A DNA stretch of 54,841 nucleotides, the filler included, from Streblomastix strix (taxonomy: Eukaryota): NCBI GenBank assembly GCA_008636045.1. It is 2 parts of 2 records of this genome, joined end to end, with 100 filler letters (N's around TTAATTAATTAA, not from the genome) between each part and the next. Parts side by side here need not be neighbours in the genome. Positions count along the whole stretch, not along the records: positions 27,513 to 54,841 come from SNRW01000146.1; 1 more part is not named here. One strand, 5' to 3'. The translations under genes were made by a program, and so were the position numbers. Positions 28,171-32,449 of the stretch are shown here, piece by piece. Each line of letters opens with the position of its first letter. The first letter of the stretch is position 1. The notes beneath the pieces were generated by a model. The model did no database searches and was not told the origin of the DNA. It saw nothing but the letters and a program-made list of their open reading frames with translations.

Positions 28171-31100
28171 TCAAGATTTTTCTGCTTATTCTAAGTATTT
28201 TTTGTGCATTGTATCGACATGTTAATAAAGAGCTGATTCCTTATCTGCAGTCTTATTTGACTTTCCATGATCATCATATTTGTGCTAATTTTTATGATCA
28301 ATTTTCAATTAAAGCTATGTATATGTCATATCAAATCCTTTACTAGCTTCAAATCCTCGCATGTGGGCCATCTCATACTCAATTGGATTTCGAATAACTT
28401 TTCTGACTTTTACACCATCAGGGAGCTCTTCATTGTTCCTGTCTTATTCTATATGTCGAATCTCGTTTTTAATCCAACCACGTACATGTGATGGTTACTT
28501 ATCATCATCTGCAATTGAACGCAATACCAATTGTGCGTTTCTTCGCCCATTTGATTTAAGTCTTATGTCTGATTCTATTACCTAACTTGCTGTATTTTCA
28601 ACATCTACAGAGTCTCTGTTTTTTTAATTTTCTGGACTTTAGATTTCCCAAGCATTATCTGACGATTCTGGAGTTGAAGTGAGGTGTACTCCACCAATGA
28701 CAATTCCCCCACCAGAAGGATAGCATATAGTTGCTGGAACTAAAAAACAAGCGTTTTCATTTGTAGAGAGGTTTTTATTGGGTTTAAGAATCCTTCCAAC
28801 TATTTCACATTTTGTTTAAAGTTATTTTTCAAGTGCATCAGCAATTGGTCTAGAATCCATATCATCAAGCCAACTATTTCCAATATGTTCATAATAATAA
28901 ATTCCTAATAGGTCTTATAGTGGTTTTTTATAATGATTTCTAATTTCATTATATTAATCATCTAACTTTCTTCTAATATCACTTTTTACATCATAAATTT
29001 CATCAGAAGTCCACTCATGTCCATAATTTTCCCTCTCAATCTCAAGAAATATCTCATCAACTTTGCTTTAACTTGGTTTAGGAGGAAGATTAAATTTTTA
29101 TCGATTTTAGTCCCACAAAGATATTACTTCTTCTCTTTTGATGTGGATTCCAAATTTAACAAAATATCTGGAAGCACATATAAGCGCTCGAAGTTTGTTC
29201 AGTTCTCGGAGACGAAGCAATTCAGGGAAATAATAACCAAACCTATCATAATTTTCTGTAAATTACCTTCCAAATTATACAGTAGATGAATCAGAATCTG
29301 CAATTTGAGCTTCTTCATCCGCATCATGAATTTCTCCATCAATGCTTCTCTCTAACTTTTTAACTTTAACTTCCATTTTACAATATCCCACTCTCAACGC
29401 AAATATATCATTACTTTCTTACTTCATTTAAATTGGAGCTTATCCAGCTTGTATCCATATTCGATGAATGCTGTCAAACTACTGTGACAATTACTATCTT
29501 GAACAAATTTGTGCAATATTTTATAGTTAAATTGTAAGCGGTTTTATAAGTTCGGACGTACTTCGATATGCAAACTCAGGACCTTTTATGCTTGCTTCTG
29601 TTCCTGTAGTTAAATATTTCAGAAGAAGGTCTGCATGAAGCATACATTCATATTCTGGAGTCATTCTTGATGGTACACGAGAAATAACTTTAGCTACATG
29701 TAGAGGTGAGTAAGGTTATAATGGTGATAGTAATTCAAGTGAGAAAGCAATATCGCCTGTGGGATTCAAGAATGAGTTAAATAAGTCTTCATCATCAAGC
29801 AGACAATCATTTGTAGACGCTAAATTATACGAAGGAACGACAATAAATTGAACCTTTGATTGTTCAATATCAATTCTAATTCCATCTACTCTCCTATATA
29901 TCCTATTATTAAATGATCTATTAAATGTCAATGCTTTTCCTGCAATTCGAAATCCATCTGTATCTCTTTGTATTAGAGGACAATTAATAGTCTTTTCCAT
30001 TTCTTCTACACTATATCCAGCATCAACTAATGTACTTGCAATACAATCTTTTCTCGATTTAATCTCGCTTTTTCCTTAAGTCATCATCTTATTCCTCATT
30101 TAAAATGCCTCATGCACAAATGCAAAATAATAAAGACGTTGAACAGAATAGACAAAAGAAAGACTATTAGGATATTTAGTAGTTGTAAGGAAATTTGACG
30201 GCTTTGATTGTTCAGTTAGGATATCATCTACTTGAATCTTCATGATCCTACAAATCTTCTATGATTGAATACACAAATAAACCGTGTCAAAAATACTATG
30301 GCAATATCCAAGAGGAAGCCAAGGAAATGCTTACATATTTGTATATAATAACTATATAATAATATGATATATATAATAATATATTAAATCAAATAAAATT
30401 ATCAAATAAATAAAAAGAAAAAACCTCACAAACAAACTTGAGCATCTTCCAATCATTTCGAGTATTGAGTTCTCCTGTCGCATGTGTAATAATAATAATT
30501 GCAGCTTAACAGGTGAAGTTTTATAGAAATGGACCATAACATCTAATTTAATCCACTAATCTCCGTATAAGAGCCAGCGATACAAGCATACATGCTTATG
30601 CTTTTGATTATTCACGCTTTCCTAAAACAATTAGTTAAACAGCAATATATATCATGCAGCTGACTTCAGCAGGGCCAAATCCAAGATCTTACACTTCATC
30701 AAGAGCATTGAATAAAGCTCTTATTACACTATTCAATTCATTACTATTTTCTACATAAACTTTGTGCAATTATTCTTCAATAGAAAGTAATACAATAGCT
30801 AGTTAGATGTCTGCGTTTAAAAGAACTATTATATTTTCTGATTTCATATATCTATCTGGATTATCTTCTGAAATCATATCAGATACCCATTCTTGCGCAA
30901 TTTGTTTCAAATCTATATATTTTCTTGATAGCATATAACCTGCTGCTTCAAAAGATTCTTCAGTTACAGATGGAATCAATTGCAATTATCCAATTGTTTA
31001 ACACATTATTTCATCAGTATAATACAACATCGATCGCATCAATGTTTATATACCAAGAAAAGGAAAATGTTTAATGATTTAGTTTCCAGCTAAAAGAATT

Positions 31101-32449
31101 TATGCTAATGCTTTTTGATACATATTCAATTCCTTTCTTTCAGATATTTCACTAGCAAACTTCTCAAATGCCTCTGCCCAAAGTCCATCTTTATTCTTCA
31201 CTGCATCTATTACCAATTATAATAATTTAACTTCTCTGCCCATTATCTCTTCTTCGTTACCAGAAATGTCAAAACATTCAACTAATTTATTTCGATATTA
31301 TCCAAGAATATTATGCGTCAATGATGCAATTGAGAGTTTTGATTAATATTACCATTCAAGAAGCTATTCTTCTGGCAAGTATGATTCAGATCTATATAAC
31401 ATATCTGATGCAACCAAAATTGCACTTGGAGATTTTTCAAGATATCCGCTTTAACAAAGGTTAAAAATCATTCCTCGTATTATGCTAATCTAAATTTATT
31501 CAGGTAATTTATCACCTAATAAAAAAACTTGTTCCATCAACATTAATGAAAGATGTAGTGTTTCTTTACATATTTAGTGCTTTTCAACAGCTAGAGAAAG
31601 CTTCCCAAGTGCGCTTGTCTTCATTTTTATAGGGTGATTAAGTAATATCATTATTTTATTTCGAATTTTCTCCCAGATTCCAACTCTAAAACCCTATTCA
31701 AAGTCTGCATCTTTTGCCGCTTTTATCAGCAAATCATTATTATCAGACTCTTCCACACATTCCGAAAAAGATTTGAATTTATTGGTTAGATTTCCTATTA
31801 AATATCCTAATGCACTGTGCATAATCTTTAAGTGTTGGTCAAGTCCTTAAGCATTTTCAAAAACTAGGCTGCAATCTTTACAACGCCTGTTTTCTGACAC
31901 TTCAATTACAGGTTAAATTTCTTTCCACTTTTCTTCCATTTTTTTATCAAAATTTATGCTCGATTCAAGTATATCTGCACCTCTAACATTCCGTGTTGCA
32001 TTATTCCAAAGCTCTTGACAAATCTCTGACATATGTATTTGTGCGTTATTCTTCTATTTATTGGGATTTCCTCTTCCACTTCCTGATTTCTGTGGCATAA
32101 TTGGTAAATCAAAATTCTTTTCTGAATTTATTCGTCGATTTTCAGCATCAAATTAATCTTAGAGCAAACGAGCCAATGCTTCATCATTTTCGATATTTTC
32201 ACTCTATACAGTAGGTATTTTATGAAATGCATCTTCTTTTTTTTGAATTCGTTATCATTCTTTTTCTTCAAACCATTATTATTCCATCTACTATTGGTCT
32301 TGCAGTGCTTGTGAATATTCTCTGTTATTCATAGTTATGCTTACATTATCTTTTTTCAACATTGATCTGGAATCGTTATCTACTATACTTAAATCATTCT
32401 AAAGATGGCGTGCAAGAGCTTTGCTTGTTGGGGTACCTTTCATACTCAT
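28171..32449 (-). CDS. Large protein with UIM-like helices, a helical region, a DUF1598-like core and a C-terminal Ntox8-like (bacterial toxin 8) nuclease domain
   Basis: Read codon by codon with TAA/TAG=Q, the frame is open from TGA 28171 to 32254 after removing one intron (~30352-30433, GTTTGT...TAG). A single in-frame TGA at 32255-32257 separates this from ATG 32449, and an alternative ATG lies at 32098. C-terminus: LRSIADDDKQPSHVRGWIKNEIRHIE...IRNPIEYEMAHMRGFEASKGFDMTYTQLQLKIDHKNQHKYD. Confidence 0.85.

What the first reader, a model, noticed from the sequence alone, without database searches (positions are those of the whole stretch)
28560..32449. Modular conserved-core plus variable-tip architecture: UIM-like helices, helical region, DUF1598-like core, linker, toxin
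Seen: a core with GDIAFSLE, MLHADLLLKYLTTGTE, HRIWIQAG, FGRQFTENYDRFGYYFPELLRLRELNKL, LVPA and GGIVIGGVHL, followed by a polar linker (TSTPESSDN...ENTASQ) and then the toxin domain. Inference: the motif series resembles DUF1598-type domains (ADxxxK ... RxW ... FTxxYD ... LxxLxxL ... GGV), and the point just after GGVHL looks like a junction where C-terminal effector domains could be exchanged. That would make this a eukaryotic polymorphic toxin family.
Basis: partly seen in the sequence, partly recalled or inferred. Interest (0 to 1): 0.78.

Follow-up and report, generated by a model that had tools for sequence, protein, structure and literature searches.

The report
Swappable-tip toxin in a gut protist
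A termite-gut protist gene joins a conserved core of no catalogued family to a predicted nuclease toxin tip, and the same core carries dozens of different tips in Legionella-like bacteria (there beside matching immunity genes), protists, animals and a giant virus, so it likely belongs to an unnamed toxin family that swaps its warheads, though this copy has an early stop codon and may be broken.

Summary
The motifs are real. The gene is on the minus strand (32449-28171, TAA/TAG=Gln), with a likely 73-nt intron and an in-frame TGA at codon 65. Its tip is Ntox8 (Pfam E 1.6e-11), with HxR and HxxxH intact. The core has hundreds of relatives, typically DnaJ-(FYVE)-helical-core-YGGVxL-linker-tip, in Legionella, Rickettsiella, Tupanvirus, Hydra, rotifers, a choanoflagellate and a chlorarachniophyte. 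135 tips fall into 57 clusters (Ntox8, AHH, Ntox17, HicA, GIY-YIG, ADP-ribosyltransferase-like, many unnamed). Bacterial members meet the polymorphic-toxin definition: Imm11 follows AHH tips (11 of 11 ORFs tested), and locus L075 reads Sel1-like gene, core-Ntox8, Imm16, orphan Ntox8, Imm16, orphan core-end-AHH, Imm11, with 536 nt of 93% identity ending 15 codons after YGGVHV. Ntox8 carriers are not one clade (AU p 9e-5). The core folds confidently (pLDDT 91) with no solved match. DUF1598 was not detected. So the swap-junction model holds, but the family is not eukaryote-only. Delivery route, target and expression are untested; this copy lacks DnaJ/FYVE and may be broken.

The parts
32258..32449 (-). 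First 64 codons from the first ATG; two short helices of the pattern ALARHLQ / YSQALQ (32425-32393, 32323-32291), MIU/UIM-like by recalled pattern only
   Evidence: no Pfam UIM hit at E<=10
32255..32257 (-). In-frame TGA at codon 65, the only TGA inside 1,401 codons (15 TGG); no AT-rich GT-AG intron removes it; next ATGs at 32098 and 32032
   Evidence: present in the identical X1 contig, which may be the source of the window
32150..32191 (-). ENDEALARLLQDQF helix, best MIU-like (ubiquitin-binding) candidate; untested
   Evidence: sequence; pattern recalled
31817..31882 (-). C2H2-type zinc finger CKDC...HLKIMH; similar fingers in the N-termini of relatives P0007, P0085, P0077
   Evidence: Pfam zf-C2H2_4 E 0.007, below cut-off; regex
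30425..31816 (-). Helical region of exon 1; its last ~100 residues align weakly with the helical region that precedes the core in relatives; no DnaJ or FYVE domain
   Evidence: 5.6 bits, reached by 7 of 1000 shuffles; whole exon 1 not significant
30352..30424 (-). Predicted 73-nt GT-AG intron, 92% A+T, phase 0; joins the two reading frames in register with the family profile
   Evidence: no RNA evidence
30061..30351 (-). Start of exon 2: continuation of the family's helical region
   Evidence: profile of relatives' upstream region, 36-37 bits for the first 150 residues, which include the core's first residues
28681..30060 (-). Conserved core (~460 aa): alpha/beta lobe 30000-29137 with ADxxxK, HRFWI, FxxxFTxxY, PELLRLxELxK motifs; helical insertion; terminal strands CFLVPA (family W-V-P-A) and GGIVIGGVHL (family YGGVxL)
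   Evidence: AlphaFold2 pLDDT 86.5/pTM 0.80 and 91.2/0.90 for the lobe; Tupanvirus J-domain protein TM 0.84, E 3.4e-17
28582..28680 (-). Polar linker; the zone in which relatives switch from shared to unrelated sequence
28171..28581 (-). Ntox8 toxin tip with all ten invariant columns of the tip alignment, among them H-x-R (AHMRG, 28368-28354) and H-x-x-x-H (HKNQH, 28296-28282); ends in TGA
   Evidence: Pfam PF15545; alignment A5

Best explanation
The gene is a eukaryotic member of an unnamed polymorphic toxin family in which a conserved core carries an exchangeable C-terminal tip, here a predicted Ntox8 nuclease that would likely be aimed at bacteria the protist meets or harbours, although an in-frame stop near the start means this copy is possibly broken. 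Shown: the architecture, the tip diversity, the recombination junction 15-24 codons after YGGVxL in bacterial loci, the cognate immunity genes and orphan cassettes in bacteria. Inferred: new tips are captured by recombination in the conserved end of the core; the N-terminus addresses the protein (J-domain engaging Hsp70 and FYVE binding PI3P-bearing phagosome or vacuole membranes in most relatives; ubiquitin-binding-like helices and a zinc finger in this copy); the core is the delivery module that presents and then releases or threads the tip (which of the two is open; I favour release by processing near the last strand, about 40%); Ntox8 cuts nucleic acid with an HNH-like His/His/His site. 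Bacteria need a linked immunity gene because the tip poisons their own cytoplasm; eukaryotic copies show none, which fits tips kept away from the producer's own nucleic acids and used on bacteria.
For: 87 of 150 best hits end their core in W-V-P...YGGVxL followed by unrelated tails. 138 of 171 core-bearing proteins reach the core end; 135 tips of 40 aa or more form 57 clusters. Pfam-named tips: Ntox8, AHH, HicA, GIY-YIG (14 of 71 proteins), Ntox17, HNH, Pertussis_S1-like, kinase. DnaJ in 38 and FYVE in 22 of those 71. Imm11 in 11 of 11 ORFs tested behind AHH-type tips; DUF2750 behind Ntox8, which PMC3482391 lists as Imm16, the Ntox8 immunity protein. L075: main gene and orphan cassette share 536 nt at 93.5% ending 44 nt after YGGVHV, then Ntox8 versus AHH. 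L039: two cassettes 99.4% alike over 1,989 nt diverge about 24 codons after YGGVNL, each with its own Imm11. Sister cores carry different tips at starred nodes; four Pfam-Ntox8 carriers rejected as a clade, p 8.6e-5. The window's tip keeps all invariant residues. Three relatives' tips share the Ntox8 N-terminal half and end in an HNH-like pattern (pattern by eye).
Against: No activity, target, localisation or expression is shown for any member. The window copy has an in-frame TGA, no DnaJ or FYVE, and the longest branch in the core trees (1.7-2.1). No orphan cassette or second tip lies in the window; exchange in eukaryotes rests on tree incongruence. 57 of 71 scanned proteins have no Pfam-named tip (some are partial, many tips are unnamed), and 40 of 57 clusters are singletons, several of them truncated or only linker. 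5 of 5 small ORFs behind non-AHH, non-Ntox8 tips matched no Pfam family, nor did 5 more. No signal peptide or secretion gene tied to the loci was found; the core's function has no structural analogue. L039 comes from an unnamed assembly, where a 99% repeat could be misassembled.
Confidence: 0.68

Rival explanations
1. In eukaryotes the family is a cell-autonomous immune or suicide effector: the N-terminal modules sense an intruder inside the cell and the tip destroys the cell's own or a virus's nucleic acid, rather than being delivered into bacteria.
For: J-domain, FYVE, C2H2 and ubiquitin-binding-like helices are cytosolic modules (established knowledge); no signal peptide is apparent and exon 2 has no 19-residue window above 1.6 hydropathy; no immunity gene follows eukaryote-type copies in L067-L074, L090, L092; the next gene upstream is a GBP/atlastin-like GTPase by motif (unconfirmed by Pfam); Tupanvirus carries a copy.
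Against: The same core in bacteria sits in toxin-immunity-orphan arrays typical of cell-to-cell competition; tips are drawn from the antibacterial pool (42-56% identity to RHS-type and stand-alone Ntox8); rapid tip turnover is expected when a target evolves immunity.
Confidence: 0.2
2. This particular copy is a decaying pseudogene of the family: real ancestry, no present function. (Not exclusive of the family claim.)
For: In-frame TGA at codon 65 present in the identical X1 contig; TGA is not otherwise used as sense (1 TGA, 15 TGG); no J-domain; long branch; the window is full of broken transposon and RT remnants.
Against: 1,336 codons after the TGA are open apart from one canonical-looking intron; core and tip keep the family's conserved residues; ATGs at 32098 and 32032 could start a protein that holds finger, helical region, core and tip; the stop may be an error or allele of one amplified sample.
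Confidence: 0.3
3. The core is a DUF1598 domain and the gene is a eukaryotic DUF1598 protein with an acquired tip.
Against: PF07643 not reported for the window core at E<=10, for 108 other scans at E<=0.001, nor among the 25 of 59 families shown for 39 core sequences at E<=10; 0 matches in the Legionella genome that holds a full member.
Confidence: 0.25
4. The gene is bacterial DNA (a Legionellales-like symbiont) assembled into or very recently inserted in the protist contig.
For: Close architectural relatives, one with the same Ntox8 tip, are bacterial; a sister position to the bacterial clade is not rejected (p 0.47).
Against: 54 TAA and 14 TAG read as Gln in the two exons; an AT-rich intron; short HRFWI-to-RLxEL spacing of 80 residues as in Tupanvirus (77) and Rotaria (79, 81), not the 174-182 of Legionella-type members; no immunity ORF downstream; diverged copies in the same run.
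Confidence: 0.02

Closest known systems
Bacterial polymorphic toxin systems (RHS, CdiA, MafB, LXG, MuF classes; PMC3482391, passages read)
   Same: Conserved body, variable C-terminal toxin after a conserved motif, linked immunity gene, orphan tip cassettes; the same tip-immunity pairs (AHH-Imm11, Ntox8-Imm16/DUF2750).
   Different: The body is DnaJ-(FYVE)-helical-core, with no RHS, filamentous haemagglutinin, HINT or other named trafficking domain (Pfam, NCBIfam); a Sel1-repeat gene usually abuts upstream in bacteria; the body is shared with eukaryotes and a giant virus, where no immunity gene was seen.
Ntox8 (PF15545)
   Same: Tip matches above the curated cut-off; HxR and HxxxH present; the paper already lists Ntox8 in dictyosteliid eukaryotes.
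   Different: Listed there with RHS repeats and T2SS/T6SS export; here fused to the unnamed core. Whether the dictyosteliid protein belongs to this family was not seen (the paper's large supplement is not held).
Crinkler/CR effector family of eukaryotes (recalled; paper not held)
   Same: Eukaryotic proteins with a header and shuffled nuclease or other toxin domains at the C-terminus.
   Different: Recalled CR headers are ubiquitin-like or similar small domains; no such model matched here; the present family has a large conserved core and bacterial members with immunity genes.
DUF1598 (PF07643)
   Same: Recalled motif order only.
   Different: No profile match in any scan; remote homology untested at profile-profile or structure level.
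Host-directed toxin-like effectors of amoeba endosymbionts (Amoebophilus, Waddlia, Wolbachia; passages)
   Same: Large multidomain proteins with C-terminal toxin domains in bacteria living inside eukaryotes, some shared with giant viruses.
   Different: Those lack immunity genes and are read as anti-host; the bacterial members here carry immunity genes and orphan cassettes.

Membership tests
Polymorphic toxin system (family level) | [quoted passage not shown] | tested here: met
   57 clusters among 135 tips behind one core; Pfam-named tips of eight kinds
Polymorphic toxin system (family level) | Linked immunity gene matching the tip | tested here: met
   Bacterial members: Imm11 11 of 11 behind AHH-type tips; DUF2750=Imm16 behind Ntox8
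Polymorphic toxin system (family level) | Stand-alone tip cassettes with homology for recombination | tested here: met
   L075 and L039
Polymorphic toxin system (family level) | Tip exchange over evolution (tip and body trees disagree) | tested here: met
   AU p 7.7e-4 for 7 Ntox8-like rows, 8.6e-5 for the 4 Pfam-Ntox8 rows; quick trees, LG+G4
Polymorphic toxin system (family level) | A known export or delivery route | tested here: inconclusive
   No trafficking domain in Pfam/NCBIfam; only a Sel1-repeat neighbour recurs
Polymorphic toxin system (this window's copy) | Linked immunity gene or orphan cassettes at the locus | tested here: not met
   Three ORFs below the tip match nothing significant; no second core or tip among the 36 frames scanned in the window. 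The copy works like a polymorphic toxin body but is not a classical toxin-immunity locus
Polymorphic toxin system (this window's copy) | Toxic activity of the tip | not testable with these tools
   needs expression and nuclease assay
Ntox8 (PF15545) | Profile score above cut-off | tested here: met
   44.7 bits against 25
Ntox8 (PF15545) | HxR and HxxxH motifs | tested here: met
   H76-x-R78 and H99-x3-H103 in alignment A5; motifs as in PMC3482391
DUF1598 (PF07643) | Profile score above the Pfam cut-off | tested here: not met
DUF1598 (PF07643) | Remote homology by profile-profile or predicted-structure comparison | not testable with these tools
   no member found in 401 Pseudomonadota genomes or a Planctomycete plasmid, and the control never rang; no library of predicted cellular structures
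DnaJ-(FYVE)-core-tip family described here | Core with ADxxxK, HRFWI, PExxRLxELxK and terminal WVP...GGVxL | tested here: met
DnaJ-(FYVE)-core-tip family described here | N-terminal J-domain, often FYVE | tested here: not met
   absent from exon 1; common but not universal in relatives (38 and 22 of 71)
UIM / MIU ubiquitin-binding helices | Profile match or ubiquitin binding | tested here: inconclusive
   no Pfam hit at E<=10; short motifs are often missed; pattern recalled
Crinkler/CR effectors | CR-type N-terminal header | tested here: inconclusive
   no such Pfam model matched exon 1; defining paper not available

The most novel reading that the evidence does not exclude
A polymorphic toxin class with a new-fold delivery core that works across domains of life: amoeba-dwelling bacteria use it against kin, with immunity genes and spare cassettes, while protists, rotifers, Hydra and giant viruses have kept the same chassis, aim it at phagosomes or symbionts through J, FYVE or ubiquitin-binding modules, and keep re-arming it with bacterial nuclease tips, a diversifying antibacterial arsenal of eukaryotes.
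Probability: 0.35. Interest if true: 0.92.

Novelty: new variant of a known kind. Interest (0 to 1): 0.8.

Why it matters
Polymorphic toxin systems are described as bacterial, and their classes are defined by the delivery module. This family adds a class whose body has no Pfam, NCBIfam or solved-structure match, and whose members are now labelled only 'DnaJ domain-containing protein'. It is concentrated where bacteria, amoeboid hosts and giant viruses meet (25 of 203 genomes of the Legionella order, 2 of 401 across the phylum sample). If the eukaryotic copies are active, protists and some animals own a warhead-swapping weapon, which would give a testable handle on how they kill prey bacteria or police symbionts, including in the termite gut. 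The motif YGGVxL also works as a hook: the domain behind it is a candidate toxin, and most of the 57 tip clusters are unnamed.

Tried and rejected
No whole genome is held for the window, so paralogs could not be collected by tBLASTn. Word-indexed homolog searches found little: 0 hits, 1 spurious long DnaJ protein (no core by profile), 5 hits. ESM Atlas gave no usable hit for the cores of two relatives; the window's own core was not searched there. PDB by sequence: nothing for core or tip (only DnaJ), nothing for one unnamed tip and its partner. Fold searches: Foldseek 0 matches at E<=0.001; VIA best Z 5.6 (helical part) and 5.3 over 59 of 288 residues; this does not prove a new fold. The models could not be opened, so it is not shown that the last two strands pack onto the lobe. 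No RNA holder listed. Viral contigs: no core-bearing locus; plasmids none; no close relative of the window protein in metagenome contigs. No complex prediction was obtained. General TGA=Trp recoding rejected. An intron that removes the TGA rejected: candidates are 70-74% A+T like coding DNA. P0099 (N-terminal Ntox8, then GGINL and core-like words) as a permuted relative: not supported. The window's place in the core tree and the origin of its tip are unresolved. Rfam 0; no meaningful repeats around the gene. Literature, ten searches, listings only: DUF1598 0 papers (17); Ntox8 2 (20); DnaJ+FYVE+polymorphic toxin+Legionella 0 (31); searches listed nothing on this architecture by title or abstract start. 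The library lacks most subscription papers, and only 1,214 characters of the supplement of PMC3482391 are held, so an earlier mention in domain-architecture supplements is possible. Earlier scan notes: none.
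Full report
What is there. The window is AT-rich eukaryotic DNA in which long frames open only with TAA/TAG read as Gln; it holds hAT and reverse-transcriptase remnants. Run X1, recorded as termite gut metagenome, holds 0.97 of the stretch's words and may be its source. A code-6 flagellate such as an oxymonad is my inference from recalled codon usage. On the minus strand, frame A runs 32449-30389 with one TGA at 32257-32255, and frame B runs 30651-28171. A 73-nt GT-AG stretch, 30424-30352, 92% A+T, the most AT-rich of the listed candidates, joins them in phase 0. 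One X1 contig covers 27843-32502 with no difference, so the TGA and the frame change are not peculiar to this window's assembly, but X1 is not independent.

Is it one gene? BLASTP of exon 1 against the 150 best hits found nothing at E<=0.01, and the whole exon scores nothing against a profile of the region upstream of the core. A narrower profile gave the last 140 residues 5.6 bits, reached by 7 of 1000 shuffles; with the first 45 residues of exon 2 behind an X the score rose to 14.5 bits and the alignment crossed the junction in register. That supports the splice moderately; the narrower profile was chosen. No RNA was available. A diverged copy in X1 is collinear from 29568 to 31024 and has 602 letters where the window has 613 across the intron, which fits a non-coding stretch, but it also differs by one letter inside exon 2, so it may itself be frameshifted. 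A second X1 contig matches at the RLxEL motif and near CFLVPA but not in the tip at 80% identity, a weak hint of a paralog with another tip.

The family. phmmer over 1.84 billion representatives gave 687 hits at E<=0.001, of which 150 were returned; 14 of these match the tip only. 87 of the 150 carry W-V-P...YGGVxL followed by unrelated tails. Of 71 of those 87 scanned in Pfam, 38 have DnaJ, 22 FYVE, one PH, and 14 a named tip: Ntox8 2, AHH 9, GIY-YIG 2, HicA 1. Further scans added Ntox17, HNH, a Pertussis_S1-like ADP-ribosyltransferase and a kinase. A core profile hit 171 of 190 proteins at hand (some are duplicates); 138 reach the core end; 135 tails of 40 residues or more form 57 clusters, 17 with two or more members and 40 singletons, some only linker or cut short. 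Of 30 proteins looked up, named sources are Legionella worsleiensis, a Rickettsiella endosymbiont, a gammaproteobacterial MAG, Rotaria, Chlorarachnion reptans, Tupanvirus deep ocean, Hydra vulgaris and Acanthoeca spectabilis; most others have no taxon, and adds Tatlockia. In bacteria it is patchy: 25 of 203 scored genomes of the Legionella order, 2 of 401 in a phylum-wide sample, one being the centre genome.

The polymorphic-toxin test. PMC3482391 (passages read) defines these systems by homologs that differ in the last domain, stand-alone cassettes and a linked immunity gene. In 21 bacterial loci read, the 11 ORFs tested behind AHH-type tips were all Imm11; five small ORFs behind other tips matched no family; four genes (L040, L044, L046, L047) and L003 showed no small partner, two of them at contig ends. 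L058 and L075, the same gene from two sources, read: Sel1-like gene, DnaJ-core-Ntox8, DUF2750, orphan Ntox8, DUF2750, and in L075 then an orphan made of the core's end plus AHH, and Imm11. The paper gives DUF2750 as Imm16, the partner of Ntox8. The L075 main gene and orphan share 536 nt at 93.5% that end 44 nt after YGGVHV. In L039 two cassettes are 99.4% alike over 1,989 nt and part about 24 codons after YGGVNL. A gene with a shared C-terminal pattern abuts upstream in 11 of 18 loci by eye; the four tested are Sel1 repeats. On core trees, starred sister pairs carry different tips, and the four Pfam-Ntox8 carriers are rejected as a clade (p 8.6e-5; p 7.7e-4 with three Ntox8-related rows). Rows for these trees were chosen by me to cover tip types; 16 of 105 were dropped for lack of the cut motif or a late start.

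Where the window copy stands. Its HRFWI-to-RLxEL spacing is 80, in the short class (50 proteins, with Tupanvirus and Rotaria), not the long class (31, with Legionella). Its branch is the longest and it joins no starred group; a sister position to the Legionella-type clade is not rejected (p 0.47). It lacks DnaJ and FYVE and has instead three short helices of MIU-like pattern (recalled) and a C2H2-type finger, as P0007, P0085 and P0077 do. No immunity gene follows it. Among short-spacing metagenome loci of likely eukaryotic origin none showed a recognisable immunity gene. The tip keeps all ten invariant columns; its tree position is unresolved.

The core. AlphaFold2 gives a confident alpha/beta lobe, a helical insertion and two terminal strands (pLDDT 86.5, pTM 0.80; lobe alone 91.2 and 0.90). 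No solved structure matches. The only structural hit is a Tupanvirus J-domain protein (E 3.4e-17, TM 0.84), a family member. Neither Pfam nor NCBIfam has a model for it. DUF1598 was never reported; since no DUF1598 member could be fetched, remote kinship stays open.

How it likely works. Shown: chassis, tips, junction, immunity pairing. Inferred: tips are captured by recombination in the conserved end of the core; J and FYVE modules (Hsp70 recruitment and PI3P binding, established knowledge) place the protein at phagosome or vacuole membranes; the core, with its conserved Asp, Lys, His, Arg and Glu, releases or threads the tip; Ntox8 is an HNH-like nuclease, suggested by three relatives whose tips share its first half and end in an HNH-like pattern. 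In bacteria the immunity genes show that the tips harm bacterial cytoplasm, so rivals inside a shared host are the likely target; the paper notes that classical polymorphic toxins were not seen to use type IV secretion, so the route here is an open question. For the protist copy I put an antibacterial role at 0.68 for the lineage, a suicide or antiviral role at 0.2, and, separately, a 0.3 chance that this copy is dead.

Novelty and verdict. Ten literature searches, seen as listings, gave no paper on this architecture; the library is partial and the key supplement was not held. It is a new variant of a known kind: a polymorphic toxin class with an uncatalogued core shared by bacteria, eukaryotes and a giant virus. 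Interest 0.8.

Noticed in passing
window 33532-35541 (-): Intact 669-aa ORF about 1.1 kb upstream on the same strand, with P-loop GPTRSGKS and DSEG motifs like GBP/atlastin/RHD3 GTPases, a helical middle and a beta-rich C-terminus; no Pfam hit at E<=0.01, weak Sey1_3HB at 0.03. A diverged copy shows in X1.
   Followed up: partly
P0008 cluster (C0, 21 proteins) including Tupanvirus P0047: The largest tip cluster is an unnamed His-rich domain with no Pfam match; a candidate new toxin domain.
   Followed up: no
L032:5941-6195, L036:5580-5834, L042:2806-3114, L043:5376-5666, L045:6315-6656, L079:4460-4834, L081:12433-12981, L086:5983-6282, L087:11601-11984: Small ORFs directly behind non-AHH tips with no Pfam family: candidate immunity proteins; those behind Ntox17 resemble each other.
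   Followed up: partly
L001:659-3379, L057, L058, L060 and others: A Sel1-repeat gene with a shared C-terminal pattern abuts the toxin gene upstream in most long-spacing bacterial loci; possibly a chaperone or adaptor of the system.
   Followed up: partly
L044 and L046: Members of a second bacterial clade end in an ADP-ribosyltransferase-like or a kinase domain, with no small partner gene seen (L044 ends at the contig edge); these may be aimed at the host.
   Followed up: partly
P0099 (888 aa): Ntox8 at the N-terminus followed by GGINL and words reminiscent of the core, then a helical region; looks like a reversed architecture but profile tests were not significant.
   Followed up: yes
L057:870-4585: A trb-like conjugation gene cluster lies two genes below a broken family member (named by eye).
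   Followed up: no
window 2386-4796 (-), 6349-8012 (+), 24064-24930 (+): hAT transposase remnant (PF05699), a DDE/pogo-like remnant (by eye) and reverse-transcriptase remnant (PF00078); further decayed retroelement-like sequence at about 13000-20000 and 37000-40000.
   Followed up: no
window 40175-45459 (+), 48249-49811 (-), 51371-54055: Fragments that recall a Polinton/Maverick-like element (protein-primed DNA polymerase-like, packaging ATPase-like and capsid-like stretches) by eye only; no significant Pfam hit.
   Followed up: no
window 9482-10432 (-): Tandem repeat region with a period of about 35 codons in translation.
   Followed up: no
window 27413-27456 and 27469-27512: Two 44-base N runs 660 bases below the gene's end: a scaffold gap, so linkage to the left half of the window is not secured.
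   Followed up: no
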